A stretch of DNA of 64,000 bases from a virus (IMGVR_UViG_3300028797_000098:38321-102320); one strand, 5' to 3'. Counted from the first letter of the stretch, positions 4,725-32,800 are shown. Notes: generated by a model not told the origin, from the letters alone. Numbers and translations are program-made.

Positions 4725-5591
4725 ATGACAATGGATGAATATGTCGCTGCATTGCACGAAATGAGTGTCCGTCTGGATATTCGTTGGTCGAAGGCACGTC
4801 TTGAACAGTATGCAAAGACCAATTACACCAGAAACGTGCTTCTAGTCAAGCCGAGCCTGTATTACACGCTGTTCAGGATGCCATGGCATTTCCTGTGCAC
4901 CCCGTTCAACAGGTTGATGAACTGGATTGGTGACCATATGCCGCTATACGATTATGATAATAGGCCGATGGATGACGGTTACATCCACTTTACTGCGATG
5001 TTGAAAATGGCCGGATTCGTGCCTTTGCAGGATTATGGCTGGCATGTCGTCGATGCCAAGCCGGTGTGCAACATGGAACCGGAACTGTTCAAGAAGTATT
5101 TCCGTTCCCAACGGATGGCAACTAGGATGATGTCAATGAATAGGGCTGAAGAATTCCTGGATGCACTCTATTCTGACTACGTGGAAAAGCATCATATCTA
5201 TGAATTTGGCAAGTACCATAGGTTCACCACGAAGCAAAGGGAAAAGATACTCAATATAATTGCCAAGGCTGATCCTGCAAAGTCTTATATCTCAATCAAT
5301 AATAGTTCGAGCGCTGGTTTCCCAGGTGAAAAATACCGGGCCAATTTTAACATAGATGATACCCGTTATTTGTACATCAGCGTCGCAGGGCCGTTGGCAA
5401 CTCCGGAAGGCGCCCCGAAGGTAATTGTGAAAACTTCGTGGACAAAGATCATTGACGACAACGACGTGTTCAAGCATCAGACATGGTTCAACGGTGACTG
5501 CATCGGGTGGCTCACGAGACGGATGGATGAACTGGAACCGGAGTACAAGAAGGCTCACCCGGAGTTCTCGCCTGGCCATGCGGAAGATTAA
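4725..5591 (+). CDS. hypothetical protein
   Basis: 288-aa ORF that starts immediately after the terminator. Confidence 0.5.
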   Translation: MTMDEYVAALHEMSVRLDIRWSKARLEQYAKTNYTRNVLLVKPSLYYTLFRMPWHFLCTPFNRLMNWIGDHMPLYDYDNRPMDDGYIHFTAMLKMAGFVPLQDYGWHVVDAKPVCNMEPELFKKYFRSQRMATRMMSMNRAEEFLDALYSDYVEKHHIYEFGKYHRFTTKQREKILNIIAKADPAKSYISINNSSSAGFPGEKYRANFNIDDTRYLYISVAGPLATPEGAPKVIVKTSWTKIIDDNDVFKHQTWFNGDCIGWLTRRMDELEPEYKKAHPEFSPGHAED

Positions 5592-5616: not shown

Positions 5617-5871
5617 AAAAAGTTTCAAAAAAGCCTTGAAAATCCATCATTTTTATTCTACTATTGCTATAAACAATATGACGAATAGCCAATTTGGGCG
5701 CGAATGTGTTCAAATAAGCTATGAAAGAGAATTTACTATGAAACAACAACTGTCACACTTAGATTATCGCACGATGAGTTTTGCATTGGCAGAACGTAAT
5801 CTCGGTTGCGCCAAGAAAATGGGACAGTTGCACTGGTAAAAATTCCTTATAAAAGGTTAGGTTGATAAGGA

Positions 5872-5905
5872 ACCAGGTTGCAACAAAAGAGCAACCTGGT
5901 TTTTT
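5872..5905 (+). terminator. strong rho-independent terminator before the tRNA array
   Basis: ACCAGGTTGC-aacaaaagag-CAACCTGGT (10-bp stem) followed by TTTTTT. Confidence 0.7.
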
Positions 5906-5920
5906 AATTACCTACCATTT

Positions 5921-5995
5921 GGGTTTGTAGCTCAGTTTTGGCAGAGCGCCTGCCCTGCAAGCAGGAGGTCGCGGATTCGAATTCCGCCAGATCCA
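5921..5995 (+). tRNA. tRNA-Ala(TGC)
   Basis: Cloverleaf read by eye. G3:U70 present. Anticodon loop ccTGCaa. T-loop TTCGAAT. No encoded CCA. Confidence 0.7.
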
Positions 5996-6053
5996 CTAAC
6001 GCTTGGCTCGTGAAGCCTCGCAGCAGATTGACATTTCGGATGACTTTTATTAT

Positions 6054-6129
6054 GGGCCATTAGCTCAGTTTTGGTAGAGCGCCTGCATGGCATGCAGGAG
6101 GTCATCGGTTCGAGTCCGATATCGGTCCA
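6054..6129 (+). tRNA. tRNA-Ala(GGC)
   Basis: Anticodon loop atGGCat. G3:U70 only if one nt bulges in the 3' acceptor strand. Confidence 0.55.
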
Positions 6130-6138
6130 GTACACTAT

Positions 6139-6214
6139 GGGTCATTAGCTCAGTTTTGGTAGAGCACTTCGTTCGCATCGAAGAGGTCGTCGGTTCGAGC
6201 CCGACATCGATCCA
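6139..6214 (+). tRNA. tRNA-Ala(CGC)
   Basis: Anticodon loop ttCGCat. Same 3'-acceptor bulge as the previous tRNA. Confidence 0.55.
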
Positions 6215-6218
6215 CTAT

Positions 6219-6290
6219 GCTCCATTAGCTTAACTGGAAGAGCACCCGGCTACGAACCGGACGATTGGGATTCGACTTCCTGATGGAGCA
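6219..6290 (+). tRNA. tRNA-Arg(ACG)
   Basis: Perfect acceptor GCTCCAT/ATGGAGC. Anticodon loop ctACGaa. Confidence 0.65.
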
Positions 6291-6299
6291 CTACTTTAT

Positions 6300-6373
6300 G
6301 GGACCTTAGAATACGCTGGCTAGTTCATCGCCCTTTCACGGCGGGGAACCGGGATCGACACCCGGAGGTCCTA
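6300..6373 (+). tRNA. tRNA-Glu(TTC)
   Basis: Anticodon arm CGCCCTTTCACGGCGG identical to E. coli tRNA-Glu. Anticodon loop ctTTCac. Confidence 0.7.
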
Positions 6374-6445
6374 CTAAATGGATTTTGGAGCAGTATCCAT
6401 CCGGCTTTGCCGGGAAGCAACCTAGGTTGCATCGTGCTCCACCAT

Positions 6446-6519
6446 CCTCATCTATATCAATTGGTTAGATAGCTACTCTGATAAGGTAGAGGTTCCTGAT
6501 TCGAGCTCAGGGGTGAGGA
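6446..6519 (+). tRNA. tRNA-Ile(GAT)
   Basis: Acceptor CCTCATC/GGTGAGG. Anticodon loop ctGATaa. T-loop TTCGAGC. Confidence 0.65.
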
Positions 6520-6523
6520 CTAT

Positions 6524-6596
6524 GGGTCTGTAGCTTAAGAGGAAGAGCGTCCGGTTTGCACCCGGTTGGTATGGTTTCGAGCACCATCAGTATCCA
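6524..6596 (+). tRNA. tRNA-Ala(TGC), second copy
   Basis: Anticodon loop ttTGCac. G3:U70 with a 1-nt bulge in the 3' acceptor strand. Confidence 0.5.
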
Positions 6597-6613
6597 CGAT
6601 TTTAATTCTATAT

Positions 6614-6686
6614 GCACCATTAGCTCAGTTGGTAGAGCAGTTGCCTCTTAAGCATCGGGTCCAAGGTCCGAGTCCTTGATGGTGCA
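6614..6686 (+). tRNA. tRNA-Lys(CTT)
   Basis: Perfect acceptor GCACCAT/ATGGTGC. Anticodon loop ctCTTaa. Confidence 0.65.
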
Positions 6687-6698
6687 CGAAGAAATTAT

Positions 6699-6773
6699 TG
6701 CGGTGTAGCTCAGTCCGGTCAGAGCAGCGGAATCATAATCCGTTGGTCGAAGGTTCAAATCCTTCTTCCGCAA
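6699..6773 (+). tRNA. tRNA-Met or Ile2 (CAT)
   Basis: U1:A72. Anticodon loop atCATaa. T-loop TTCAAAT. Confidence 0.6.
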
Positions 6774-6886
6774 CGATGCAGCCCGGCAGTTAAAGAATGC
6801 CGGTCCCGACAAAGATAAGGTCGGTCGGTATAAAGCGCCGAAACAACATAAGAACCTAAAGCACCGGGGGCTGCGTTAAACATTTT

Positions 6887-6960
6887 GGGGGCGTGGTGAA
6901 GAGGCTCAACACAGCGGTCTGTCTAACCGCCATTCGCGGGTTCGAACCCCGCCGCTCTCG
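6887..6960 (+). tRNA. tRNA-Asp(GTC)
   Basis: Anticodon arm GCGGT-ctGTCta-ACCGC. Acceptor with two G:U pairs. T-loop TTCGAAC. Confidence 0.55.
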
Positions 6961-6964
6961 TTAT

Positions 6965-7039
6965 ACTCGGTTAGCTCAGTTGGTCCAGAGCGGCTGCCTT
7001 ACAAGCAGCGGGTCAGCGGTTCGACTCCGTTATCGAGTA
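6965..7039 (+). tRNA. tRNA-Val(TAC)
   Basis: Anticodon loop ctTACaa. D-loop agttggtcca. Confidence 0.65.
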
Positions 7040-7048
7040 CGAAATTAT

Positions 7049-7120
7049 AGGGATTTAGGACAGTGGCTAGTCTAGCGCTCTCCAAAAGCGTCTACGGGAG
7101 TTCGAGTCTCTCAGTCCCTG
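7049..7120 (+). tRNA. tRNA-Trp(CCA)
   Basis: Anticodon loop ctCCAaa. T-loop TTCGAGT. Confidence 0.65.
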
Positions 7121-7132
7121 CGAAATTTTTAT

Positions 7133-7215
7133 GGGTGTGCCGAAGAGTTGGAGATCTTCTTCGGTCTGTAAAACCGACGGCTACGCCTTTGATGGTCCGA
7201 ATCCATCCACACCCA
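7133..7215 (+). tRNA. tRNA-Tyr(GTA), class II
   Basis: Perfect acceptor GGGTGTG/CACACCC. Anticodon loop ctGTAaa. 13-nt variable arm. Confidence 0.7.
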
Positions 7216-7226
7216 CTATTCTTTAT

Positions 7227-7299
7227 TCCACCTTAGCTCAGTAGGTAGAGCGGGCGACTGTTAATCGCCTGGTCCCACGTTCGAGTCGTGGAGGTGGAG
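7227..7299 (+). tRNA. tRNA-Asn(GTT)
   Basis: Acceptor TCCACCT/AGGTGGA. Anticodon loop ctGTTaa. Confidence 0.7.
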
Positions 7300-7306
7300 C
7301 TAATAT

Positions 7307-7382
7307 TGCCGATTAGCCAAGCGGTAAGGCGCCGCGCTCTGAACGCGGGATTCTTTCGGTGGTTCGATCCCATCATCGGCAA
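7307..7382 (+). tRNA. tRNA-Gln(CTG)
   Basis: U1:A72. Anticodon loop ctCTGaa. Unusually long 9-nt variable region. Confidence 0.5.
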
Positions 7383-7393
7383 CTAAATTTTAT

Positions 7394-7464
7394 GCACCTA
7401 TGTTGTAGTGGTAGCAAACGACCTTGCCATGGTTGAAGCTCCGGATCGTACCCGGATAGGTGCT
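7394..7464 (+). tRNA. tRNA-Gly(GCC)
   Basis: Perfect acceptor GCACCTA/TAGGTGC. Anticodon loop ttGCCat. Confidence 0.7.
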
Positions 7465-7468
7465 CTAT

Positions 7469-7553
7469 CTCGTCGTGGGGGAATTTGGTAGACCCGCCAG
7501 CTTGAGGGGTTGGTGTTGAAATACACGTGGTGGTTCGAGACCACTCGACGAGA
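7469..7553 (+). tRNA. tRNA-Leu(GAG), class II
   Basis: Anticodon loop ttGAGgg. Long variable arm. Confidence 0.6.
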
Positions 7554-7566
7554 CTAACTTTAACAA

Positions 7567-7651
7567 CGCCCAGTGATGGAATTGGGTAGACAATGCGGAC
7601 TTAAAATCCGCAGCGAGTATTCGCGTGCCGGTTCGATGCCGGTCTGGGCGA
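7567..7651 (+). tRNA. tRNA-Leu(TAA), class II
   Basis: Perfect acceptor CGCCCAG/CTGGGCG. Anticodon loop ctTAAaa. Variable-arm stem GCGA/TCGC. Confidence 0.6.
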
Positions 7652-7725
7652 CTACAAGGGACAATGAATATGAAACGAAAATACAAACGATTATGATGGT
7701 GACGACTGCCAATTCAGTCGTGTCG

Positions 7726-7798
7726 GCTCCATTAACTCAGAAGATAGAGTACCGCCCTTTTAAGGCGGGAGTCGAGATGGCGGAATTCTCATGGAGCA
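7726..7798 (+). tRNA. tRNA-Lys(TTT)
   Basis: Perfect acceptor GCTCCAT/ATGGAGC. Anticodon loop ctTTTaa. Non-canonical T-loop GGCGGAA. Confidence 0.5.
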
Positions 7799-7805
7799 CT
7801 ATAAT

Positions 7806-7876
7806 GCACCTATGGTGTAGCGGTAACACGGCAGTCTTCCAAACTGCACTCGCCAGTTCGATTCTGACTAGGTGCT
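7806..7876 (+). tRNA. tRNA-Gly(TCC)
   Basis: Same acceptor as tRNA-Gly(GCC). Anticodon loop ctTCCaa. Confidence 0.65.
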
Positions 7877-7885
7877 TTATTATAC

Positions 7886-7967
7886 CGATCTGTGGCGGAA
7901 AGCATACGCAACGCACTCAAAATGCGTCGTCCGAAAGGAATTGTGGGTTCGTGTCCCACCAGATCGA
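7886..7967 (+). tRNA. tRNA-Leu(CAA), class II
   Basis: Perfect acceptor CGATCTG/CAGATCG. Anticodon loop ctCAAaa. Long variable arm. Confidence 0.6.
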
Positions 7968-7971
7968 CTAT

Positions 7972-8056
7972 CGGCATGTGGCGTAACTGGTAGCCGCGCT
8001 GCGTTCAGGGCGCAGTGTACATTTGTACGTGATGGGTTCGAATCCCTCTGTGCCGA
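7972..8056 (+). tRNA. tRNA-Leu(CAG), class II
   Basis: Anticodon loop ttCAGgg. Variable-arm hairpin GTACA/TGTAC. Weak T-stem. Confidence 0.5.
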
Positions 8057-8061
8057 CTTAT

Positions 8062-8133
8062 GGCCCCTTAGACCAGCGGTTAAGTCACAGGATTCTCATT
8101 CCTGGCACCCGAGTTCGAGCCTCGGAGGGGCTA
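8062..8133 (+). tRNA. tRNA-Glu(CTC)
   Basis: Anticodon loop ttCTCat. T-arm CCGAG-TTCGAGC-CTCGG. Confidence 0.6.
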
Positions 8134-8137
8134 CTAT

Positions 8138-8210
8138 TGGGCCGTGGTGCAATTGGTAGCACGCAAGATTTTGAGTCTTGATGTTGTTGGTTCAAGTCCA
8201 GCCAGCTCAA
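8138..8210 (+). tRNA. tRNA-Gln(TTG)
   Basis: U1:A72. Anticodon arm CAAGA-ttTTGag-TCTTG. Confidence 0.6.
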
Positions 8211-8213
8211 TTC

Positions 8214-8296
8214 CCCGAGGTGGCGGAATGGTAGACGCGCCTGCCTTAGGAGCAGGTGCCCGGAAGGGCGTGCAGGTTCGAGTCCTGTCCTCGGGA
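8214..8296 (+). tRNA. tRNA-Leu(TAG), class II
   Basis: Perfect acceptor CCCGAGG/CCTCGGG. Anticodon loop ctTAGga. Long variable arm. Confidence 0.6.
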
Positions 8297-8305
8297 TAAT
8301 GATAT

Positions 8306-8380
8306 GCGCTCTTAGCCAAGCCTGGTCTAAGGCAAGTGGTTGCAACCCACTGATCGGCGGTCCGAATCCGTCAGAGCGCT
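8306..8380 (+). tRNA. tRNA-Cys(GCA)
   Basis: Perfect acceptor GCGCTCT/AGAGCGC. Anticodon loop ttGCAac. Confidence 0.65.
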
Positions 8381-8394
8381 CGAAAGATTTTTAT

Positions 8395-8467
8395 GGGGCT
8401 GTAGCTCAGTTGGTAGAGCGGCAGGTTGAAGCCCTGCGCGTCGGAGGTTCGACTCCTCCCGGTCCCA
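8395..8467 (+). tRNA. tRNA-Phe(GAA)
   Basis: Canonical GTAGCTCAGTTGGTAGAGC D-arm. Anticodon loop ttGAAgc. Confidence 0.7.
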
Positions 8468-8473
8468 CTATTT

Positions 8474-8561
8474 GGAAATGTCCCATAATTGGTTATTGGC
8501 CCTCCTTGGAAAGGAGCGTGGTGGTGAAAGCTGCATGAAGGTTCGAGTCCTCCCATTTCCG
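8474..8561 (+). tRNA. tRNA-Ser(GGA), class II
   Basis: Perfect acceptor GGAAATG/CATTTCC. Anticodon loop ttGGAaa. Long variable arm. Confidence 0.55.
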
Positions 8562-8568
8562 CGAATTT

Positions 8569-8655
8569 GGAAGCGTAGACCTAATTGGTAAGGCCCCCGG
8601 CCCGAACCCGGTGGTGAGGAAGTTCCTCATGTAGGTTCAAGTCCTGCCGCTTCCG
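8569..8655 (+). tRNA. tRNA-Ser(CGA), class II
   Basis: Perfect acceptor GGAAGCG/CGCTTCC. Long variable arm. Anticodon reading CGA is tentative. Confidence 0.45.
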
Positions 8656-8659
8656 CTAT

Positions 8660-8743
8660 GGAAGCGCACGAGATTGGCGACTCAAGCGGACTTGAAATCC
8701 GTGGTTCCGCAAGGGCTTGGGGGTTCGACTCCCTCCGCTTCCG
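8660..8743 (+). tRNA. tRNA-Ser(TGA), class II
   Basis: Same acceptor as the previous tRNA. Anticodon loop ctTGAaa as in E. coli tRNA-Ser. Confidence 0.55.
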
Positions 8744-8752
8744 CGAAAGTAT

Positions 8753-8825
8753 TCCGACATAGCTCAATTGGTAGAGCAGTTCATTCGTAATGAACCGGTT
8801 GCTCGTTCGACCCGAGCTGTCGGAG
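8753..8825 (+). tRNA. tRNA-Thr(CGT)
   Basis: Perfect acceptor TCCGACA/TGTCGGA. Anticodon loop ttCGTaa. Confidence 0.65.
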
Positions 8826-8829
8826 CTAT

Positions 8830-8918
8830 GGAGAGGTAGCCTAATTGGTAAGGCAGGGGCTTGCTAAGCCCCCGTGGCCCTCAAAAGCTGCTTGCAGGTT
8901 CGAACCCTGTCCTCTCCT
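8830..8918 (+). tRNA. tRNA-Ser(GCT), class II
   Basis: Perfect acceptor GGAGAGG/CCTCTCC. Anticodon loop ttGCTaa. Long variable arm. Confidence 0.55.
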
Positions 8919-8924
8919 CTACAT

Positions 8925-8998
8925 GGTGTCAGTAGCTCAATCGGTGGAGCCCTGGTTTGTGGAACCAGCTGTTGCAAGTTCAAGCCTTGTCTGATACC
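8925..8998 (+). tRNA. tRNA-His(GTG) with encoded G-1
   Basis: Extra 5' G opposite discriminator C. Anticodon loop ttGTGga. Confidence 0.65.
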
Positions 8999-9046
8999 CT
9001 AAGTCATCTGAAATGTCGCGGATTTATTCAAGCAAAAGGATACAAC

Positions 9047-9376
9047 ATGATTACGGTAGCACAGATCAACGAATTGCGCAAGGCGACCCAGGTGAGCATG
9101 CTTCTATGTAAGCAGGCCCTGGAAGCGACCGGTGGCGATTTCGATGCCGCCAAGGAATGGCTCAGGGGCCAGGGCGGCGAGGTCGCCGGTGGCCCTTCCG
9201 AGTTCGGCGTCACCCTTTTCGCCGATGGCGCCGTCAATCAGCATGGTGTCACCGATGTCTTCACCTATTCCGACGGACATTCCACCGTGGACATCCGCGG
9301 TTATAGCGGTACGACCCCTTCTACCGTATGGGCCGATTTCAGGCACCAGCTCGTATTGAGACCGGCCAAGGCCTAG
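9047..9376 (+). CDS. EF-Ts N-terminal (UBA-like) domain protein
   Basis: AAAGGA SD then ATG. MITVAQINELRKATQVSMLLCKQALEATGGDFDAAKEWLRGQG resembles the EF-Tu-binding N-terminus of EF-Ts. The remainder is unrelated. Confidence 0.5.
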   Translation: MITVAQINELRKATQVSMLLCKQALEATGGDFDAAKEWLRGQGGEVAGGPSEFGVTLFADGAVNQHGVTDVFTYSDGHSTVDIRGYSGTTPSTVWADFRHQLVLRPAKA

Positions 9377-9383
9377 TCTTTCA

Positions 9384-9459
9384 GCCGGCGTAGCTCAATG
9401 GACTTCAGAGCACTCGACTTCTAATCGACAGGTTGCCAGTTCGACCCTGGCCGTCGGCA
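9384..9459 (+). tRNA. tRNA-Arg(TCT)
   Basis: Anticodon loop ctTCTaa. T-arm GCCAG-TTCGACC-CTGGC. Followed by TTTTTT. Confidence 0.6.
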
Positions 9460-9505
9460 TTTTTTGTTCATATTTTGTGAATATCTGTTGCCAACATGTG
9501 AAAAT

Positions 9506-9875: not shown

Positions 9876-10547
9876 ATGGAACAAGGAACAAGACTTTACA
9901 TCAATATTACCAACCGCTGCAATACGGACTGCCCGTTTTGCTGCATGTACTCCGGAACGGGAAATACTATCGACATGGATTTCGATGTGTTCCGTCGCAT
10001 CATAAATGAATGCCATGGCGACTTCGAGATTCAGTTTGAGGGCGGTGAACCCTTGATCCACAAGAATTTCTACCTATTCCTCGAATATGCCATCTCGACT
10101 GGCCGTTGCAAGAAGGTGAATATCCTGACGAACGGCATCGTGCTCGGGAAACACCTGCCTCGCCTGGTAAGTGTGTACAAGTGGTATGACATTCCCTTTG
10201 AAATCAAGGTATCGGTGAACTACTGGCTTATCAGGAAGCATGAAAACCATATCAAGCTGATTGCCGACTATGTGTTCGCCACCGAATACATGCCGAACTT
10301 CAATATTGTCCTGAATACCCGCAAGCGGCATAACGATGAGTGGATTGACGAGGAAATCAAGAATGCCGGGATGGAGGCCATTAACCACTCATTTTACCTT
10401 CAGAGTTATGGTAAGATGACTGGAAGCGACTATGATGGGGTGAAGATTGTCCAGAACATTGAAAACTGGCAGATTTACTCTGTAGATGGGCTGTGTTTCC
10501 ATCAGGACCTGGTTGCCCGTTCCGAACATGAGAGGAATCTATCGTGA
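9876..10547 (+). CDS. radical SAM protein, paralog 1 (MoaA/PqqE-like core)
   Basis: CNTDCPFCC CxxxCxxC motif, FEGGEPLIH, ILTNG. Confidence 0.7.
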   Translation: MEQGTRLYINITNRCNTDCPFCCMYSGTGNTIDMDFDVFRRIINECHGDFEIQFEGGEPLIHKNFYLFLEYAISTGRCKKVNILTNGIVLGKHLPRLVSVYKWYDIPFEIKVSVNYWLIRKHENHIKLIADYVFATEYMPNFNIVLNTRKRHNDEWIDEEIKNAGMEAINHSFYLQSYGKMTGSDYDGVKIVQNIENWQIYSVDGLCFHQDLVARSEHERNLS

Positions 10548-11506
10548 ATACCATCAAGTTTGCTCCATACAATGACTTCGTGACCGAACAGCACGATGTC
10601 GAGCATGCCTCGGTGGACACCGTTAAGGTGGGTGAAACTGAGTACAGGTTCTACAACCCCTGCAACCTGAACGTGTTCATCACGAATACGTGTCAGAACG
10701 CATGCGACTTCTGCATCAACAAGGGGCAGACGGACCAGTTCCGCATGGGTGACACTACATATTACGAGGACTTGGAGAAGGGTCTGGAAAAGCTGTCCGG
10801 TGTGAAGCTGGAAGCGACCATCACAGGCGGGGAACCTACTCTTCTCCCGAGACGCCTGGTCGAGACAGTTCGTATCCTGACCAAGCACGGGGTGCATGAA
10901 CGCACCGTGTCTACCACAGGCATCGGACTCCTTGAAAAGTACGAGGGGAAGACCGTCTTCCAGCACCTAATCGAGAATGGGTACACCCACAATATCTCGA
11001 TTAGCCGCATGGCCGAGGACGAATGGGAGAATGACCGCATCATGATGGGCGAGAAGTATTCGTCCAGGCAGCGTAACATTGGAAACGACGAGCTTAGGCG
11101 CCTCGCGACCATCGCCAAGGCGAATGGGGTTCAGTTACGCACCAGTACCAATTTACTTGCCGGACATGTTGATTCGTTCAAGAAGATGCTTCAATTTGTC
11201 GATTTTCAGTATGGTAATGGTATCGAAAGCTGTCTGTTCCGTGAGCTCGAAGGAAAGATACAGAAAATGTGGACGCCGATTGACTGGATTGCCGATACCG
11301 TGCGTATCATTAAGGATTTTAAATATGTCAAGACGGTGAACGGCATGTTCTATGACATAGAACAGTATCTGTACACTTCGCAGGCAACTGGGATGGAGTA
11401 CATTGTCAAGGTTTACAAGAACCATGTGGTCGATGCCGACATCATTGGTTCGCTTTCATTTAATCACGGTGTCATCCGAAAAGGATTTCATGGAGAAGAA
11501 ATATGA
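10544..11506 (+). CDS. radical SAM protein, paralog 2
   Basis: CQNACDFC, ITGGEPTLL, TTGIG. ATGA overlap with the upstream gene. Confidence 0.7.
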   Translation: MNTIKFAPYNDFVTEQHDVEHASVDTVKVGETEYRFYNPCNLNVFITNTCQNACDFCINKGQTDQFRMGDTTYYEDLEKGLEKLSGVKLEATITGGEPTLLPRRLVETVRILTKHGVHERTVSTTGIGLLEKYEGKTVFQHLIENGYTHNISISRMAEDEWENDRIMMGEKYSSRQRNIGNDELRRLATIAKANGVQLRTSTNLLAGHVDSFKKMLQFVDFQYGNGIESCLFRELEGKIQKMWTPIDWIADTVRIIKDFKYVKTVNGMFYDIEQYLYTSQATGMEYIVKVYKNHVVDADIIGSLSFNHGVIRKGFHGEEI

Positions 11507-12627
11507 TTAAAGTGGGTGCAGAAAGAGAAATTCGCTGGCAGCCTGAACTTAGAGAAGAACGCCAGAAGAATTACGATATTACACAATACGAGAGCATTCA
11601 TCACAAGTTTGCTACTGGTGATTTTGATGTCTACAAGAACTTCAACTTCAGTATCTTCATCAGCGACTACTGCAACGCGGACTGCAAGTTCTGTGTTGCA
11701 CAGCTCCGCTATGCCAACAAGGGGCTGATGTACCAGAAGGAGAAGCTGCCGGATAACCTGTGGCTGACCCGCTGCCGTGAAGTTCTTGAAATGATCCGTC
11801 CCCTCAACCCGAGCATTTCCATTACGGGCGGTGAACCGACTATGTCCAAGAAGCTCATTCCGGTTCTTGAAATGGTGAACGAGCTTGGTTTCCGCAAGCG
11901 CACCATCACGACCAACGGTTCGCACCTCTTTGACAAGGTGGGCAACAAGATGATTATTGACCATCTTATTGATAACGGATGGAATCACTTGAACATTTCC
12001 CGCCCGGCAATCACCGACGAGACTGCGAAACGCCTCATGCGCTTCAATAACGAGGAAGGTTTCTGTTCCAATGAAATGATGCGTGACATCATCGACATTA
12101 CGAACCATTCCGACATGAAACACCGCATTTCCTGCCTCCTCTTGAAGGAGGAAGTGAACTCCGTTGAAAAGATGAAGGAGTATTTGGACACCTATATCGA
12201 CATGGGCGCCAACAATTTCATCTTCCGCGAGCTCATGGACTACGACACGACCGCAATCAACCTGGAAAAGACCAAGTATTGTGTGGACAACAAGGTCAAG
12301 CTGAACGATATCTGGGCCAAGATTGACAATTACCCTGAATTCGAGAAGTACCTGAACATCCTCGGCTACTATTACTATGTGGAAATCTACAAGTACCGTG
12401 GCGCGACGGTCGCCTCCGAGGGCGCTAACATGGTCCAGCAGGGTCTCGAAGTGAAGAAGCACCCGAACCGTGTCTACGAGGCCGTGTTCCATCCGAATGG
12501 AAACCTCTGCGCATCCTGGATTGACAAGGAACGCATCCTTGACCCGTATTACATTGAGCATAAGATCGTCAAACGCCGTTTTGGCGATACTGCTAACTCG
12601 GATGCCAACCTCAAAGTGGGGAAATAG
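11503..12627 (+). CDS. radical SAM protein, paralog 3
   Basis: CNADCKFC, ITGGEPTM, TTNGSHL. Clearly paralogous to 10544-11506. Confidence 0.7.
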   Translation: MIKVGAEREIRWQPELREERQKNYDITQYESIHHKFATGDFDVYKNFNFSIFISDYCNADCKFCVAQLRYANKGLMYQKEKLPDNLWLTRCREVLEMIRPLNPSISITGGEPTMSKKLIPVLEMVNELGFRKRTITTNGSHLFDKVGNKMIIDHLIDNGWNHLNISRPAITDETAKRLMRFNNEEGFCSNEMMRDIIDITNHSDMKHRISCLLLKEEVNSVEKMKEYLDTYIDMGANNFIFRELMDYDTTAINLEKTKYCVDNKVKLNDIWAKIDNYPEFEKYLNILGYYYYVEIYKYRGATVASEGANMVQQGLEVKKHPNRVYEAVFHPNGNLCASWIDKERILDPYYIEHKIVKRRFGDTANSDANLKVGK

Positions 12628-17526: not shown

Positions 17527-18762
17527 ATGAAGATTGAAGAAAAGTACATTTCCGAGACAGTCAAGAAGGGTATCGGCTTGCTCGCCGAAATCCATAAGCG
17601 CGGGCACGAGGCATACATTGCCGGTGGCGCCGTGCGCGACCTCGTAATTCGCCAGTTGCACATGGTGTCGGGTTCCGAAAATGAAGTTCCCGTGCATGAC
17701 GTGGACATCGCGACCAACATGCCCATCGAGGACCTGAAACTTGCCTTCCGCTGCGACTCCAATAACGGGGAAGCGCATGGCACGATCCTGGTCCATTATG
17801 ATGGCCTGGTGTTTGAGGTGACCCAGTTCCGCGTCGATGGCAACTATTCCGACGGTCGCCACCCGGATTCGGTGAATTTCACCAAGTCCTTCAAGGAAGA
17901 CTGCGCCCGGCGTGACTTTACCATTAACGCTATGGGTCTGGACAAGGACCTCAATGTCATCGACTATTTCGGCGGTATTGACGACCTGGTATTCCGTCGT
18001 CTCCGTGCAGTGGGCAACCCGTATGACCGCATGACCGAGGATTCCCTCCGTATCATTCGCGGTATGCGATTTGCCGCCCGTTTCGGTTTCGTGATTGACG
18101 ACCTTACCAAGTTGGCCATGCGCAGCCGCCTGCACCACATCAAGAGCGTGGCGATGGAGCGCATCCATGACGAATTGCACAAGTGTGCCGAGTATGGCGT
18201 GCTGCCTTTCGTGAACATGATTGGGTACCTGTCCGAGTATGGCATCGGATCAATTTTCCAGGATGTCGGCTTCTGCTTTGACCGTCAGCGCATGCTCGTG
18301 GAATCCTTGGTACGCGGAAACGTGGATGCCGATACAATCATGTCGGTATTCATCTGCATGCTGCCGAAGAAGTCCATGGAATGGCTCCGCTGCACCCGTA
18401 AGGAAATCCGCATGGCCGAGCGCATCAGGGATGGCCTGATTGGCATCATGTCCGGAAAGTTCGGTCTTGCCGATGAGCAGTTGCTCTATTCCGTTGAACT
18501 GGCCGCTTCCCCGGAATTCAGGCTCATTACCAACCTGTACCGCGAACTGAACCCGTATGGTACCGCCCTGGGTGATGGTGCGGCGACGATATGCGATGTC
18601 ATTGCGCGTTGCAGGAAGGGCGTACCCGAATACGGAAAGCAGGTTGCCGCGGAAGGTATCCAGGAAGGACCGGAATTTGGCAAGCGCCTGCGGGAAGTCA
18701 TCCTCGCCGACTACAAGAGAATCAAGGATGAGTGGGACAAATCAATGAACAGGATGTGGTAA
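17527..18762 (+). CDS. cca: tRNA nucleotidyltransferase (CCA-adding enzyme)
   Basis: Class II head domain GGAVRDLVI...DVDIAT, then RIIRGMRFAARFGF. Confidence 0.75.
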   Translation: MKIEEKYISETVKKGIGLLAEIHKRGHEAYIAGGAVRDLVIRQLHMVSGSENEVPVHDVDIATNMPIEDLKLAFRCDSNNGEAHGTILVHYDGLVFEVTQFRVDGNYSDGRHPDSVNFTKSFKEDCARRDFTINAMGLDKDLNVIDYFGGIDDLVFRRLRAVGNPYDRMTEDSLRIIRGMRFAARFGFVIDDLTKLAMRSRLHHIKSVAMERIHDELHKCAEYGVLPFVNMIGYLSEYGIGSIFQDVGFCFDRQRMLVESLVRGNVDADTIMSVFICMLPKKSMEWLRCTRKEIRMAERIRDGLIGIMSGKFGLADEQLLYSVELAASPEFRLITNLYRELNPYGTALGDGAATICDVIARCRKGVPEYGKQVAAEGIQEGPEFGKRLREVILADYKRIKDEWDKSMNRMW

Positions 18763-19160
18763 TCGTGGCAAAACCTACATGGACAGAAATTAGTGAGTTC
18801 AAGGACTGGATGGTCGAGCGCGGTTATGAAACCGACCGTGACCGCACCCGTTTCAAGAAGGGAAAGGACGGGATTGCCTTGGAATTCTGGATTGGCGAGT
18901 GTGCCAACGGTTCATTCAAGTGCCTCAATGCGCAGGTTCAACTGAATTTCGTTGACACATGGTTTCATACTGCCGGCATATTCCGTACCGGGGCGTTCAT
19001 GCCGTGCAAGACACTCTCGCATGAGTATGTGCTCATGTGCGAACTCCAGCACCGCAAGATTGAACTGGAAACCGAATCCTTCTTCGCCAAGGCAAATAAC
19101 CTGATTGCCGAAACGACCGATGAAATCAAGAAAATTAACCGCGGAGCACAGAATGCCTAA
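18732..19160 (+). CDS. hypothetical protein
   Basis: 142-aa ORF that overlaps both neighbours. Confidence 0.4.
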   Translation: MGQINEQDVVIVAKPTWTEISEFKDWMVERGYETDRDRTRFKKGKDGIALEFWIGECANGSFKCLNAQVQLNFVDTWFHTAGIFRTGAFMPCKTLSHEYVLMCELQHRKIELETESFFAKANNLIAETTDEIKKINRGAQNA

Positions 19161-20800: not shown

Positions 20801-20810
20801 CTATATTTTG
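20795..20810 (+). promoter_or_regulatory. promoter element TTTTTGCTATATTTTG
   Basis: 3 nt before the ATG at 20814. Confidence 0.5.
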
Positions 20811-20813
20811 AAC

Positions 20814-28329: not shown

Positions 28330-28439
28330 GGAAATGGCTGCATAAGGTAACTGCGCCGAAATGCAAACACCTGAATTTTACGCTGAACGGAAAGCCCACG
28401 GCTTCAGCCGTGGGATGATGAAAATGGTTGCCAATTAAG

Positions 28440-32408: not shown

Positions 32409-32437
32409 AATTTAGGAAAATCCTCCGATATGGCTGG

Positions 32438-32455
32438 AAATTTGCTATATTCGGG
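32438..32455 (+). promoter_or_regulatory. promoter element AAATTTGCTATATTCGGG
   Basis: Followed by a non-coding structured region and then tRNA-Gly(CCC). Confidence 0.45.
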
Positions 32456-32708
32456 ATAACAGTCGTCCGTTCTGCCACAAGAATCAGTGGAGTGTCGCTT
32501 GGGGTCATGACCAGGCAGCCGATGAGCGGTCCTGAATCATCAGTAAATGGTTCTGTGCCCATGCAGATATCATGCGGCGGGGGATGCCTTTCCCCTTTCT
32601 GGAAATTCGCTCCCATAAGGAAGAAATTAGGCACCCTTCCCCTGGGGTAAAAGGGGAAACGGTTGGACCACCCGTTACCGTGACGTGATTTACCACGGAG
32701 GCCCACCA

Positions 32709-32781
32709 TGCGGGAGTAGCTCAGGTGGTAGAGCGAGGCATTCCCATTGCCTAGGTCGCGAGTTCGAATCTCGTCTCCCGC
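32709..32781 (+). tRNA. tRNA-Gly(CCC)
   Basis: Perfect acceptor GCGGGAG/CTCCCGC. Anticodon loop ttCCCat. T-loop TTCGAAT. Confidence 0.7.
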
Positions 32782-32800
32782 TTTAGCAAAGGATGACAAC

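What the first reader, a model, noticed from the sequence alone, without database searches (positions are those of the whole stretch)
5921..9459. 3.5-kb array of 34 tRNAs with no encoded CCA and a conserved CTA...TAT punctuation
The array carries 34 cloverleafs. Isoacceptor sets are notable: Leu x5 (GAG, TAA, CAA, CAG, TAG), Ser x4, Ala x4, Gly x2 plus an isolated CCC, Gln x2, Glu x2 and Lys x2. Spacers are often only 4-12 nt. Almost every tRNA is followed, directly after the discriminator, by CTA instead of CCA, and the next tRNA is preceded by (C/T)TAT. Examples are ...ccA-CTAT-gggtcat and ...gcA-CTAcTTTAT-gggacct. This looks like a built-in processing code, with CCA then added by the phage CCA enzyme at 17527. 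Pro, initiator Met and several Arg, Thr and Val isoacceptors were not found in the window.
Basis: seen in the sequence. Interest (0 to 1): 0.55.

Follow-up and report, generated by a model that had tools for sequence, protein, structure and literature searches.

The report
Phage tRNA array with near-CCA punctuation
A rumen jumbo-phage genome carries a tightly packed block of 33-34 transfer-RNA genes whose short spacers obey a strict pattern (C-T/G-A after each tRNA, T-A-T before the next). The T-A-T half fits the known preference of the bacterial tRNA-cutting enzyme RNase P, so this is a very regular example of a known kind of element, not a new kind.

Summary
ARAGORN tRNAs at 5921-9459, plus an isolated Gly-CCC. 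None has CCA at positions 74-76. Position 74 is C in 27/34, position 75 is T or G in 33/34 and never C, and position 76 is A in 31/34. Leaders are T(-3) 29/34, A(-2) 28/34 and T(-1) 30/34. Sixteen related arrays, mostly from rumen samples, show zero CCA in 368 genes. Their spacers change length and inner sequence but keep C-K-A at the start and T-W-T at the end.

The pattern is not unique. A(-2)U(-1) is the published optimum for bacterial RNase P. In 389 unrelated viral tRNAs, 78% of CCA-less genes keep C74, and half read C-(not C)-A, mostly CAA. This family uses a CTA/CGA "dialect".

ORF 17527-18762 is a Bacillus-type class II CCA-adding enzyme by motifs and closest solved structures.

Best reading: a polycistronic tRNA operon cut by host RNase P, trimmed at the 3' end, and completed by CCA addition. 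Why K75 and A76 are conserved remains unexplained.

Verdict: new member of a known kind, moderate interest.

The parts
5871..5905 (+). Terminator-like hairpin plus T-run just upstream of the array (AACCAGGTTGC...GCAACCTGGTT TTTTT)
   Evidence: Read from sequence. No sigma-70-like promoter lies between it and the first tRNA.
5921..5995 (+). tRNA-Ala(UGC), G3:U70, A73; trailer CTA
6054..6129 (+). tRNA-Ala(GGC), irregular acceptor stem (mismatches at 6:67 and 7:66, one extra nt), G3:U70 kept; trailer GTACACTAT
6139..6214 (+). tRNA-Ala(CGC), same irregular acceptor stem; spacer CTAT
6219..6290 (+). tRNA-Arg(ACG); trailer CTACTTTAT
6300..6373 (+). tRNA-Glu(UUC), T-loop AUCGACA; ARAGORN only; trailer CTA
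   Evidence: 9 of 21 pairs are compensatory in relatives.
6387..6444 (+). tRNA-like mini-structure. It has an acceptor-like helix plus two hairpins and ends A-CCA, with U at -1. This is the only encoded ACCA at an acceptor-like end in the array.
   Evidence: Fold z=-3.0 to -3.3. Conserved in L033, L041, L057 and L075, with one A-U to G-U to G-C compensatory series. No Rfam family.
6446..6519 (+). tRNA-Ile(GAU), C1-G72; ARAGORN only; spacer CTAT
   Evidence: 12 of 21 pairs compensatory.
6524..6596 (+). Second tRNA-Ala(UGC), irregular acceptor stem; trailer CGA...TATAT
6614..6686 (+). tRNA-Lys(CUU); trailer CGAAGAAATTAT
6699..6773 (+). tRNA with CAU anticodon (elongator Met or Ile2 type; U1-A72, not initiator-like); trailer CGA
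6774..6886 (+). 113-nt structured spacer (closed multi-hairpin). It starts with CGA and ends with TTTT.
   Evidence: Fold z=-2.6 to -3.1. 95-96% conserved in 5 relatives. No Rfam family.
6887..6960 (+). tRNA-Asp(GUC); spacer TTAT
6965..7039 (+). tRNA-Val(UAC), A1-U72; trailer CGAAATTAT
7049..7120 (+). tRNA-Trp(CCA); trailer CGAAATTTTTAT
7133..7215 (+). tRNA-Tyr(GUA), long variable arm; ARAGORN only; trailer CTATTCTTTAT
   Evidence: 15 of 22 pairs compensatory.
7227..7299 (+). tRNA-Asn(GUU); trailer CTAATAT
7307..7382 (+). tRNA-Gln(CUG); trailer CTAAATTTTAT
7394..7464 (+). tRNA-Gly(GCC); spacer CTAT
7469..7553 (+). tRNA-Leu(GAG); ARAGORN only; trailer CTAACTTTAACAA
   Evidence: 7 of 22 pairs compensatory.
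7567..7651 (+). tRNA-Leu(UAA); trailer CTA
   Evidence: Matched only through the tRNA-Sec model in Rfam E-value mode.
7726..7798 (+). Lys-UUU-like cloverleaf. Acceptor GCUCCAU/AUGGAGC, anticodon loop CUUUUAA, no GG in the D-loop and no T-psi-C in the T-loop. Trailer CTATAAT. Either a non-canonical tRNA or a pseudogene.
   Evidence: Not called by ARAGORN or Rfam. Fold. Not homologous to the canonical Lys-UUU of relatives. Identical copies in L057 and L066.
7806..7876 (+). tRNA-Gly(UCC); trailer TTATTATAC
7886..7967 (+). tRNA-Leu(CAA); spacer CTAT
7972..8056 (+). tRNA-Leu(CAG); spacer CTTAT
8062..8133 (+). tRNA-Glu(CUC); spacer CTAT
8138..8210 (+). tRNA-Gln(UUG), U1-A72; spacer TTC
8214..8296 (+). 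tRNA-Leu(UAG); trailer TAATGATAT
8306..8380 (+). tRNA-Cys(GCA); trailer CGAAAGATTTTTAT
8395..8467 (+). tRNA-Phe(GAA); spacer CTATTT
8474..8561 (+). tRNA-Ser(GGA); spacer CGAATTT
8569..8655 (+). tRNA-Ser(CGA); spacer CTAT
8660..8743 (+). tRNA-Ser(UGA); spacer CGAAAGTAT
8753..8825 (+). tRNA-Thr(CGU); spacer CTAT
8830..8918 (+). tRNA-Ser(GCU); spacer CTACAT
8925..8998 (+). tRNA-His(GUG) with encoded G(-1) opposite C73; trailer CTA
9047..9376 (+). 109-aa ORF inside the array. Its N-terminus resembles the EF-Ts N-terminal (UBA-like, EF-Tu-binding) domain.
   Evidence: Pfam EF-Ts_N 1e-5, below cut-off. NCBIfam tsf 5.5e-10. PDB EF-Ts 7vmx 1e-5. Conserved in relatives.
9384..9459 (+). tRNA-Arg(UCU), last gene of the array
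9460..9465 (+). T6 run directly after the discriminator of Arg-UCU; terminator-like end of the operon
   Evidence: Same in relatives.
17527..18762 (+). Class II nucleotidyltransferase, probable CCA-adding enzyme
   Evidence: PolyA_pol head domain 6e-29. Best NCBIfam match is CCA tRNA nucleotidyltransferase, 219 bits, below the 290 cut-off. Motifs GGAVRD/DVD, RRDFTINA, EDSLRIIR and flexible loop YSDGRHP. Closest PDB entries are the CCA-adding enzymes 6ibp (4e-45) and 1miv (7e-38), against poly(A) polymerases at 1e-18.
32710..32782 (+). Isolated tRNA-Gly(CCC); leader CAT, trailer TTA

Best explanation
This is a polycistronic tRNA operon of a rumen jumbo phage (contigs of about 160-300 kb). It holds 33 canonical tRNAs for 19 amino acids, plus one aberrant Lys-like cloverleaf, two conserved structured spacers and a small EF-Ts-like ORF.

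Proposed maturation (all steps inferred; no RNA data):
1. The array is transcribed as one or a few precursors that end at the T-run after Arg-UCU.
2. Host RNase P cuts 5' of every tRNA. The nearly invariant U(-3)A(-2)U(-1) is the optimal proximal leader. A(-2) also cannot pair with C74, which avoids the leader-trailer pairing that inhibits RNase P.
3. Each tRNA is left with a 3-17 nt trailer that begins C74-(U/G)75-A76.
4. Full CCA is never encoded, so the trailer is not protected by the CCA anti-determinant. It is removed by RNase Z and/or 3' exonucleases, back to N73 or to C74.
5. CCA is built or completed by a class II CCA-adding enzyme, which the phage supplies itself (17527-18762).

The C74 that is kept is a partially encoded CCA. 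It may also preserve part of the RCC-L15 pairing with RNase P RNA.

The grammar is a sharp, lineage-specific 'dialect' (CTA/CGA) of a rule common to CCA-less phage tRNA genes: C, then not-C, then usually A.

The array's role is the usual one proposed for large phages: supplying translation capacity independent of the host tRNA pool. Under simple wobble rules the set reads about 86% of codons in the window's ORFs.
For: Shown by tools:
- 33 tRNAs on one strand, with tRNA sequence filling 72% of 3.5 kb.
- Position-specific enrichments with P from 1e-9 to 1e-15.
- 0 CCA in 368 genes of 16 related arrays. In 89 unique spacers of 6 nt or more: C74 72/89; position 75 T54/G25/A10/C0; A76 83/89; T(-3) 76; A/T(-2) 89/89; T(-1) 74. 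Inner spacer composition is C 14% and G 6%.
- Spacer length and interior vary between orthologous junctions while the ends are kept.
- The trailer signal persists without the TAT leader in a distant phage, L085.
- Comparators: Acj9 has CCA followed by ...TTTAT. crAss001 has C74 in 22/23 and A(-2)T(-1) in 19/23. Actinophages have C74 in 15/16 and 10/11.
- 389 unrelated viral tRNAs: 78% of CCA-less genes keep C74; T(-1) 60% and A(-2) 61%.
- CCA-adding enzyme assignment.
- T-run after the last tRNA.
- Decoding coverage of about 86%.

From the literature:
- A(-2)U(-1) is optimal for bacterial RNase P, U(-1) contacts A248, the 3' RCC pairs with the L15 GGU, and leader-RCCA pairing is an anti-determinant (PMC10731613, PMC9433436).
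- RNase P separates polycistronic pre-tRNAs (PMC7049720).
- CCA slows B. subtilis RNase Z about 1500-fold, and RNase Z needs a short 5' leader and cuts after N73 (PMC7479834, PMC1874595).
- Partial CCA in tRNA genes is recognised in M. tuberculosis (PMC10673834).
- Gut jumbo phages average 23 tRNAs and reach 68 (PMC11662467).
Against: - There are no expression or end-mapping data.
- No promoter was found between the upstream terminator-like hairpin (5871-5905) and the first tRNA.
- The host is only tentatively Fibrobacter, so its RNase P type, RNase Z and exonucleases are unknown, and its own tRNA gene flanks could not be examined.
- C74 is a problem for a simple RNase Z model. B. subtilis RNase Z needs U74 in a pocket. 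For eukaryotic RNase Z, C at the first trailer position is the strongest anti-determinant and U at the second enhances it (PMC11649783). CUA trailers might therefore be poor RNase Z substrates for a cut after N73.
- RNase P rules do not explain the strong conservation of A76, the exclusive use of U/G at 75, or the absence of the CAA that is commonest elsewhere.
- The phage enzyme scores below the NCBIfam equivalog cut-off, and only its N-terminal half aligns.
Confidence: 0.72

Rival explanations
1. C-(U/G)-A is an active, lineage-specific 3'-processing signal, not just a disabled CCA. An endonuclease (host RNase Z variant or a phage enzyme) would cut after C74. It would hold N75 in a pocket that accepts the keto bases U and G and rejects C and A, and it would also contact A76. 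The product tRNA-N73-C would then be completed by the phage CCA-adding enzyme. Phage tRNA maturation would thus be tied to a dedicated enzyme pair, and position-75 'dialects' would track enzyme specificity across phage or host lineages.
For: - G at position 75 is enriched about 5-fold over inner-spacer G (25/89 against 6%). A is depleted (10/89 against 39%, mostly in TAT spacers that lack C74). C is absent.
- CTA and CGA interchange at orthologous junctions.
- A76 is 83/89 even where it is not part of the next leader.
- The signal persists in L085 without TAT leaders.
- Other viral arrays show distinct dialects: CAA-rich L158 (19/24), CAA plus CTA in L136, CGT/CGA in L104 and L143.
- E. coli RNase BN/Z removes residues from tRNA-CA, tRNA-CU and tRNA-CCU (Asha 1983, as cited in PMC7479834).
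Against: - No candidate nuclease was found in the 64-kb window.
- No biochemical precedent for a keto-specific pocket at position 75 was found in the papers read.
- U74, not U75, occupies the B. subtilis pocket (PMC11649783).
- The pattern could equally reflect the host RNase P L15 or an exonuclease preference.
Confidence: 0.18
2. The punctuation is a neutral historical relic. The tRNA genes would have spread by duplication together with their flanks, or descend from CCA-encoding ancestors with one mutation, and the flanks simply have not yet diverged.
For: - CTA and CGA are each one substitution from CCA.
- Many junctions are the identical tetramer CTAT.
Against: - The tRNA bodies are fully diverged isoacceptors for 19 amino acids.
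- Spacer interiors and lengths vary freely between relatives while the ends are fixed.
- 0 of 368 genes reverted to CCA, although each is one step away.
- The same ends occur in a phage whose CCA enzyme is only 42% identical.
Confidence: 0.04
3. The conserved junction tetramers act at the DNA level as microhomology. They would allow precise gain, loss and reshuffling of tRNA 'cassettes' between related phages.
For: - Relatives differ by clean insertions or deletions of whole tRNAs (Pro-CGG, Thr-AGT, second Tyr) and by order swaps (Gly-GCC/Gln-CTG, Leu-CAA/Leu-CAG).
- An endonuclease ORF (DUF559) is inserted in the array of L001.
Against: - 3-4 bp is too short to drive recombination.
- It does not explain the strand-specific asymmetry (C-K-A on the 3' side, T-A-T on the 5' side) or the match to RNase P preferences.
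- Dispersed tRNAs in L085 keep the trailer.
Confidence: 0.04
4. The array is a bacterial (host) tRNA operon on a mis-assembled or mis-binned contig, not a phage feature.
For: - The TnpB element at 28377-29719 is 88% identical to copies on a contig binned to a Fibrobacter MAG.
Against: - The same array, in the same gene context, is found on 160-300 kb contigs from many samples and in IMG/VR viral contigs.
- The neighbours are typical jumbo-phage auxiliary genes: NAD+ salvage, PARG, RlaP and a radical-SAM trio (PMC11662467).
- No rRNA or housekeeping operon is present.
- The Fibrobacter-binned contig also carries a homologue of a phage gene from this window.
Confidence: 0.02

Closest known systems
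tRNA gene clusters of T4-like phages (tested here: Acinetobacter phage Acj9, 19 tRNAs)
   Same: Tandem same-strand tRNAs separated by 4-12 nt AT-rich spacers that end ...TTTAT, TTAAT or TTTAA. This gives U(-1)/A(-2) leaders for RNase P.
   Different: Acj9 encodes CCA in 16/19 genes. Here 0/34 do, and position 75 is always U or G. T4-type hosts mature CCA-encoding precursors exonucleolytically (own knowledge).
Bacteroides phage crAss001 tRNA cluster (23 called here)
   Same: CCA-less (21/23), C74 kept (22/23), A(-2) 19/23, T(-1) 19/23, and a host from the FCB group.
   Different: Positions 75 and 76 are loose (T9/A11/C3 and A11/T9). Many spacers are longer than 70 nt, and the cluster is interrupted by ORFs. 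In the window family K75-A76 is nearly fixed, and CAA and CAT are absent.
tRNA arrays of huge/jumbo phages from gut and rumen metagenomes (PMC11662467; Morgado and Vicente 2019, PMC6409571)
   Same: Contigs in the 200-kb class, dozens of tRNAs, and co-occurring NAD+ salvage genes and other auxiliary translation genes. The mean is 23 tRNAs and the maximum 68.
   Different: In the passages searched for tRNA and CCA (PMC11662467) junction grammar and absence of CCA are not discussed; of PMC6409571 only the abstract was seen. This family adds a fully regular punctuation and two conserved structured non-tRNA spacers.
CCA-less tRNA genes and the RNase Z plus CCA-adding pathway of Bacillus subtilis and Mycobacterium
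   Same: Genes lack CCA. 3' maturation must expose N73 (or a partial CCA) for a class II nucleotidyltransferase. The phage enzyme is closest to the Bacillus-type enzymes 1miv and 6ibp. Partial CCA is recognised in M. tuberculosis (PMC10673834).
   Different: B. subtilis trailers typically start with U74, which its RNase Z needs (PMC11649783, PMC8943300). Here position 74 is C, and U or G sits at 75.
Actinophage tRNA clusters (Rhodococcus phage Dorin, Mycobacterium phage CELFI)
   Same: CCA-less with C74 retained (15/16 and 10/11).
   Different: Their dialect is CGT/CTT/CAA with T favoured at 76. Leaders are not TAT, and the genes are dispersed among ORFs.

Membership tests
tRNA (Rfam RF00005 / cloverleaf) | Covariance-model score above the gathering threshold, or a cloverleaf call | tested here: met
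   26 of 33 array genes plus Gly-CCC pass at gathering. Three more pass in E-value mode. All 33 are called by ARAGORN.
tRNA (Rfam RF00005 / cloverleaf) | Helices supported by compensatory substitutions in homologues | tested here: met
   For the four ARAGORN-only genes, 7-15 of 21-22 pairs show double changes across relatives.
tRNA (Rfam RF00005 / cloverleaf) | The same criteria applied to the Lys-UUU-like element at 7726-7798 | tested here: not met
   Not called by ARAGORN at relaxed thresholds or by Rfam at E<=1. The T-loop and D-loop lack the elbow nucleotides.
Phage tRNA gene cluster | Many tRNA genes in tandem on one strand | tested here: met
   33 genes in 3.5 kb, 72% of it tRNA sequence.
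Phage tRNA gene cluster | Located in a phage genome | tested here: met
   An identical region lies on 160-kb and 43-kb contigs. Relatives lie on 224-300 kb contigs and IMG/VR viral contigs. Gene content is typical of gut jumbo phages (PMC11662467). No structural genes fall inside this window, so phage identity rests on context and collections.
CCA-less tRNA genes dependent on CCA addition | No CCA at positions 74-76 of the gene | tested here: met
   0/34 in the window and 0/368 in the family after register check.
CCA-less tRNA genes dependent on CCA addition | CCA is added post-transcriptionally to the mature tRNA | not testable with these tools
   Needs tRNA 3'-end sequencing.
Class II CCA-adding enzyme (ORF 17527-18762) | Head-domain motifs A (GGxVRD...DxD), B (RRD), D (EDxxR) and the flexible loop | tested here: met
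   GGAVRD/DVDIAT, RRDFTINA, EDSLRIIRGMRF and YSDGRHP are seen in the translation. PolyA_pol domain 6e-29.
Class II CCA-adding enzyme (ORF 17527-18762) | Full-length match to a curated CCA-adding equivalog | tested here: not met
   The best NCBIfam model, NF009814, scores 219 bits against a cut-off of 290. Only residues 10-220 align. Solved CCA-adding enzymes are nevertheless far better hits than poly(A) polymerases.
Class II CCA-adding enzyme (ORF 17527-18762) | Adds C, C, A to tRNA-N73 | not testable with these tools
   Needs an enzyme assay.
Optimal bacterial RNase P substrate | U at -1 and A at -2, with no leader pairing to positions 73-75 | tested here: met
   T(-1) 30/34, A(-2) 28/34 and G(-2) 0/34. 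In family spacers of 6 nt or more there is no G or C at -2. The rule is from PMC10731613 and PMC9433436.
Optimal bacterial RNase P substrate | 3' RCCA able to pair with the L15 GGU | tested here: inconclusive
   Only C74 (27/34) is kept. U75 could wobble with G, but G75 could not. The host P RNA is unknown.
B. subtilis-type RNase Z substrate | No CCA after the discriminator | tested here: met
B. subtilis-type RNase Z substrate | Uracil at position 74 entering the activating pocket | tested here: not met
   Position 74 is C in 27/34 and T in 6/34. The requirement is as described in PMC11649783, citing Pellegrini 2012.

The most novel reading that the evidence does not exclude
C74-(U/G)75-A76 is a dedicated 3'-maturation signal, and its position-75 'dialect' co-evolves with a specific processing enzyme. 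That enzyme could be a host RNase Z or RNase P variant, or an unidentified phage nuclease working with the phage CCA-adding enzyme. More generally, CCA-less phage tRNA genes obey a rule not described in the papers read here: they stay exactly one middle-base substitution away from CCA (C-notC-A). This would imply functional reading of C74 and A76 in the precursor. The conserved 58-nt tRNA-like minihelix ending in ACCA (6387-6444) could be a processed small RNA or a decoy for the same machinery.
Probability: 0.18. Interest if true: 0.6.

Novelty: new member of a known kind. Interest (0 to 1): 0.38.

Why it matters
Large tRNA arrays are thought to let big phages translate their genes even when the host tRNA pool is unsuitable or under attack. 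This family gives an unusually clean natural data set. It comprises 16 arrays, 368 genes and about 170 distinct junctions, in which the sequence constraints on pre-tRNA processing can be read directly from conservation.

The leader half reproduces the RNase P optimum that was measured in vitro for E. coli. That suggests the rule also holds in an uncultured rumen system.

The trailer half shows that C74 and A76 are kept while C75 is excluded, and that lineages differ in which base replaces C75. The RNase Z and RNase P rules read here do not explain this. A survey plus simple enzymology could turn it into a host-prediction or processing-pathway marker for phage tRNAs.

For annotation, the grammar helps to set exact tRNA ends. 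It also helps to flag non-canonical members, such as the Lys-like gene and the ACCA-ending minihelix.

Tried and rejected
- Close relatives by protein in IMG/VR: the radical-SAM protein and ORF 4725-5591 gave nothing.
- Megablast of the array against 50,697 deposited phage genomes returned only a 64-nt tRNA-Thr hit.
- Radical-SAM homologues at 69-72% identity (L005, L007) have no adjacent tRNAs. These were dropped as comparators.
- Distant CCA-enzyme homologues P0013 (locus L084), P0031, P0065 and P0114 have no tRNAs within 10 kb.
- Rfam in E-value mode found no known family in the array gaps or upstream of Gly-CCC. The 300-nt stretch before Gly-CCC is not significantly structured (z=-0.85).
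- The sigma-70 promoter scan found no convincing promoter for the array. The only perfect TATAAT (7800-7805) has no -35 element. FCB-type promoters are not covered by the tool.
- Host identification through the TnpB element gave a Fibrobacter-binned contig. That contig also carries a phage-like gene, so it is weak evidence.
- The 'encoded CCA after re-alignment' possibility was checked. All apparent C75 cases are ARAGORN register shifts in Ala and Gln genes.
- I considered that CUA/CGA ends might be used directly without CCA. I rejected this on established knowledge that C75 pairs with 23S rRNA in the A and P sites.
- Key primary papers are not in the library and are cited only through papers that quote them, or as own knowledge: Pellegrini 2003 and 2012, and Dutta 2013.

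Full report
**1. What is there**

ARAGORN finds 34 tRNA genes in the window, all on the plus strand. Thirty-three lie at 5921-9459 and one, Gly-CCC, at 32710-32782.

- Rfam's tRNA model passes 26 of the 33 at its gathering score, plus Gly-CCC.
- Three more appear in E-value mode: Ser-GGA, and Ser-UGA and Leu-UAA through the related Sec model.
- The four ARAGORN-only genes are Glu-UUC, Ile-GAU, Tyr-GUA and Leu-GAG. They are real. When same-anticodon genes from related phages are aligned, 9/21, 12/21, 15/22 and 7/22 predicted pairs show changes on both sides.

- It has a good acceptor stem and a good anticodon arm with loop CUUUUAA.
- It has neither GG in the D-loop nor T-psi-C in the T-loop.
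- It is rejected by ARAGORN even at lowered thresholds and by Rfam.
- It is unrelated in sequence to the canonical Lys-UUU genes at the same place in relatives.

tRNA sequence fills 72% of the 3.5 kb. Of 32 spacers, 24 are 12 nt or shorter. The five long gaps are 58, 72, 113, 154 and 385 nt.

The set covers 19 amino acids; Pro is absent. The single CAU tRNA has U1-A72 and lacks the three G-C pairs typical of initiator anticodon stems. Under simple wobble rules the set reads about 86% of the codons in roughly chosen ORFs of the window.

**2. The punctuation is real and far beyond chance**

I set the discriminator from the acceptor-stem pairing.

| Position | Count (of 34) |
|---|---|
| 74 | C 27 |
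| 75 | T 25, G 8, A 1, C 0 |
| 76 | A 31 |
| -3 | T 29 |
| -2 | A 28 |
| -1 | T 30 |

- Binomial P values against window composition run from 1e-9 to 1e-15.
- Trailers are CTA 18, CGA 8 and others 8. Leaders are TAT 22, TTT 4 and CAT 3.
- CCA occurs 0 times.
- Seven spacers are exactly CTAT and one is TTAT. In these the two motifs overlap.

CTA', and misread one example (Ala-GGC is followed by GTACACTAT).

**3. It is conserved by selection**

The window is identical to parts of a 160-kb JGI contig and a 43-kb ENA contig.

An 18-mer spanning one junction retrieved syntenic arrays from IMG/VR and metagenomes. Protein look-ups added L001 (CCA enzyme 90% identical, 270-kb rumen contig) and L082 (64% identical; analysed separately). 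The pooled set of 16 arrays (window included, L082 not) has 368 tRNA genes, 258 of them non-redundant.

- Trailers are CTA 137 and CGA 49. The TAT leader occurs 137 times.
- Every apparent C at position 75 is a register slip of ARAGORN in Ala or Gln genes. The family therefore has no encoded CCA at all.
- Orthologous junctions differ in length and interior but keep their ends. Arg-ACG to Glu-UUC is ctactttat, ctacatcttat, ctacaacttat, ctacaatat, ctacaacttt or cgattat.
- CTA and CGA toggle in an otherwise identical context. Lys-CUU to Met is cgaacaaattat or ctaacaaattat.

The cleanest test uses the 89 unique spacers of 6 nt or more, where leader and trailer motifs do not overlap.

| Position | Count (of 89) |
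|---|---|
| 74 | C 72 |
| 75 | T 54, G 25, A 10, C 0 |
| 76 | A 83 |
| -3 | T 76 |
| -2 | A 61, T 28 |
| -1 | T 74 |

The interior of the same spacers is 39% A, 41% T, 14% C and 6% G.

tRNAs gained in some relatives, such as Pro-CGG and Thr-AGU, carry the same flanks.

In L085 the CCA enzyme is only 42% identical and the 10 tRNAs are dispersed. Seven trailers are CTA or CGA, yet none of the leaders is TAT. The trailer signal therefore stands on its own.

**4. How special is it?**

Comparators with known hosts:

| Phage | Trailers | Leaders |
|---|---|---|
| Acj9 (T4-like) and an Erwinia jumbo phage | CCA encoded in 16/19 and 9/10 | AT-rich spacers ending ...TTTAT or TTTAA |
| Bacteroides phage crAss001 | CCA-less, C74 22/23, position 75 T/A, position 76 A/T | A(-2) 19/23, T(-1) 19/23 |
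| Rhodococcus phage Dorin | C74 15/16, then CGT, CTT or CAA | not TAT |
| Mycobacterium phage CELFI | C74 10/11, then CGT, CTT or CAA | not TAT |
| Bacillus phage Goe8 | mixed CCA and non-CCA | not tabulated |

As a less biased background I took 76 IMG/VR loci picked only by a D-arm 18-mer, giving 389 tRNAs.
- 204 encode CCA.
- Of the 185 that do not, 145 (78%) keep C74.
- Among those 145, position 75 is A 77, T 46, G 20, C 2, and position 76 is A 90.
- The commonest non-CCA trailers are CAA 58, CTA 23, CTT 14, CAT 12 and CGA 9.
- Whole arrays have 'dialects': L158 has CAA in 19/24, L136 has CAA 9 and CTA 9, and L104 and L143 favour CGT/CGA.
- Leaders overall are T(-1) 60% and A(-2) 61%.

Thus 'C, then not C, then usually A' plus an A-U leader is a general grammar of CCA-less phage tRNA genes. 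The window's family is an unusually strict version that uses only U or G at position 75.

**5. Mechanism**

Established rules explain the leader.
- Bacterial RNase P prefers U(-1), which contacts A248 of the P RNA.
- A(-2)U(-1) is the optimum in high-throughput kinetics.
- Leaders that pair with the 3' RCC are strongly inhibitory (PMC10731613, PMC9433436).
- A(-2) cannot pair with C74. G(-2), which could, is 0/34 here, and neither G nor C occurs at -2 in the 89 unique family spacers of 6 nt or more.
- RNase P is the enzyme that separates polycistronic pre-tRNAs (PMC7049720).

For the trailer:
- Full CCA slows B. subtilis RNase Z about 1500-fold.
- RNase Z cuts after N73 and needs a short 5' leader, so RNase P should act first (PMC7479834, PMC1874595).
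- The complete avoidance of CCA, one mutation away in 186 of the 258 non-redundant genes (CTA or CGA), fits selection to keep the 3' end accessible to such processing.
- The retained C74 is most simply a partially encoded CCA, as recognised for M. tuberculosis (PMC10673834).
- C74 may also keep one pair of the RCC-L15 interaction with RNase P RNA (PMC10731613).

CCA must then be built or completed. ORF 17527-18762 carries the class II motifs GGAVRD...DVD, RRDFTINA and EDSLRIIR, and the flexible loop. Its best solved relatives are genuine CCA-adding enzymes: 6ibp at 4e-45 and 1miv at 7e-38, against poly(A) polymerases at 1e-18. Only the N-terminal half aligns, and the NCBIfam equivalog cut-off is not reached.

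All processing steps are inference. No RNA data were available.

**6. What this does not explain**

- B. subtilis RNase Z needs U74 in a pocket. For eukaryotic RNase Z, C at the first trailer position is the strongest anti-determinant and U at the second adds to it (PMC11649783). C-U-A is therefore not an obviously good RNase Z substrate for a cut after N73.
- None of the rules I read accounts for the near-fixation of A76. Nor do they explain the use of the two keto bases U and G at 75, to the exclusion of the A that is commonest in other phages.
- This leaves room for a more specific reader of the trailer: a cut after C74, an exonuclease stop, or a host-specific RNase P L15. I rate this at about 0.18.
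- The host is only tentatively Fibrobacter. The evidence is a Fib_succ_major domain and an 88% identical TnpB element on a Fibrobacter-binned contig that may itself be phage. The samples appear to be rumen metagenomes, judging by sample names and by the ruminal MAG hits. Host tRNA flanks could not be examined.
- No promoter was found between the terminator-like hairpin at 5871-5905 and the first tRNA.
- The operon ends with a T6 run directly after Arg-UCU.

**7. Embedded non-tRNA elements**

*Gap between Glu-UUC and Ile-GAU.* It holds a 58-nt tRNA-like minihelix at 6387-6444.
- It has a 6-7 bp acceptor-like helix and two hairpins, U at -1, and a 3' end A-CCA. This is the only encoded ACCA in the array.
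- It folds significantly better than shuffles (z about -3).
- It is 96-97% identical in four relatives, with one A-U to G-U to G-C series in a hairpin.
- It is not a tRNA by any tool, so it does not refute 'no encoded CCA'. It does look like a possible RNase P substrate.

*Gap between Met and Asp.* This 113-nt gap is a conserved closed multi-hairpin (z -2.6 to -3.1).

*Gap between His and Arg-UCU.* It holds a conserved 109-aa ORF whose N-terminus resembles the EF-Tu-binding N-terminal domain of EF-Ts.

**8. Verdict**

This is a new member of a known kind: a tRNA operon of a jumbo phage with its own CCA-adding enzyme. Such phages average 23 tRNAs and reach 68 (PMC11662467), and viral tRNA clusters of dozens of genes are catalogued (PMC6409571). 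What stands out is the regularity of its processing grammar.

The leader half is textbook RNase P. The trailer half is one dialect of a widespread 'one-off-from-CCA' rule whose molecular reader is not established. That rule, more than this particular array, is what deserves follow-up.

Noticed in passing
window 6387-6444: A conserved 58-nt tRNA-like minihelix sits between Glu-UUC and Ile-GAU. It ends A-CCA and has U at -1, so it looks like a possible RNase P substrate or small RNA. One compensatory change is seen in relatives. No Rfam family matches.
   Followed up: partly
window 6774-6886: A 113-nt closed multi-hairpin spacer lies between the CAU tRNA and Asp. It is 95-96% conserved in five relatives, folds with z about -3, and matches no Rfam family.
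   Followed up: partly
window 7726-7798: A Lys-UUU-like cloverleaf with an intact anticodon arm has lost both D-loop GG and T-loop T-psi-C. It replaces the canonical Lys-UUU of relatives. Identical copies occur in L057 and L066. It is either a non-canonical tRNA or a pseudogene.
   Followed up: partly
window 9047-9376: A 109-aa ORF inside the tRNA operon has an N-terminus like the EF-Tu-binding N-terminal domain of EF-Ts (PDB 7vmx 1e-5; NCBIfam tsf 5.5e-10). It is conserved in all relatives that cover this position. It may be a phage modulator of EF-Tu.
   Followed up: partly
window 6054-6214 and 6524-6596: Three of the four tRNA-Ala genes have irregular acceptor stems, with an extra nucleotide and mismatches at 6:67 and 7:66. 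All three keep the G3:U70 identity pair and A73.
   Followed up: no
IMG/VR loci L089-L168: There is a general rule in viral tRNA genes. When CCA is not encoded, 78% keep C74 and about half read C-(A/T/G)-A. Array-specific 'dialects' exist, with CAA commonest. I found no description of this in the papers searched.
   Followed up: partly
window 9876-12627: Three consecutive radical-SAM genes lie directly downstream of the array. The trio is conserved even in more distant phages that lack the adjacent array (L005, L007). Function is unknown, with weak similarity to MoaA and viperin-type enzymes.
   Followed up: no
window 133-1497, 19105-19992, 26939-28018, 34964-36358: An NAD+-related gene set is present: NAD-dependent DNA ligase, a microbial PARG-like protein, an NMNAT-Nudix fusion, and a NAPRTase-family enzyme. 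This matches the NAD+ synthesis and use systems reported for gut jumbo phages (PMC11662467).
   Followed up: no
window 28377-29719: A TnpB (OrfB_IS605/Cas12f-like) element is 88% nt and 91% aa identical to two copies on a contig binned to a ruminal Fibrobacter MAG and one on a Prevotella-binned contig. It is a host hint, or a mobile element shared among related phages.
   Followed up: partly
window 20808-22160 and 38301-38882: An RlaP-family (RNA-repair-associated) nucleotidyltransferase and a weak PTH2-like peptidyl-tRNA hydrolase domain are present. These are further RNA- and translation-related genes near the array. A relative (L005) carries RtcB.
   Followed up: no
window 32409-32709: About 300 nt without a convincing ORF lie upstream of the isolated tRNA-Gly(CCC). 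The stretch ends with the same heptamer CCACCAT that precedes Ile-GAU. It has no Rfam hit and is not significantly structured.
   Followed up: partly
L001 1-1067; arrays in L015, L041, L033, L075: Array plasticity among relatives. A DUF559 endonuclease-like ORF and another ORF are inserted in the array of L001. Whole tRNAs are gained or lost (Pro-CGG, Thr-AGU, second Tyr, extra Ala/Glu). Neighbour orders are swapped (Gly-GCC/Gln-CUG, Leu-CAA/Leu-CAG).
   Followed up: partly
window 7799-7805: A perfect TATAAT lies within the trailer and leader before Gly-UCC (CTATAAT). No -35 partner was found. It could be an internal promoter or a coincidence of the AT-rich grammar.
   Followed up: no
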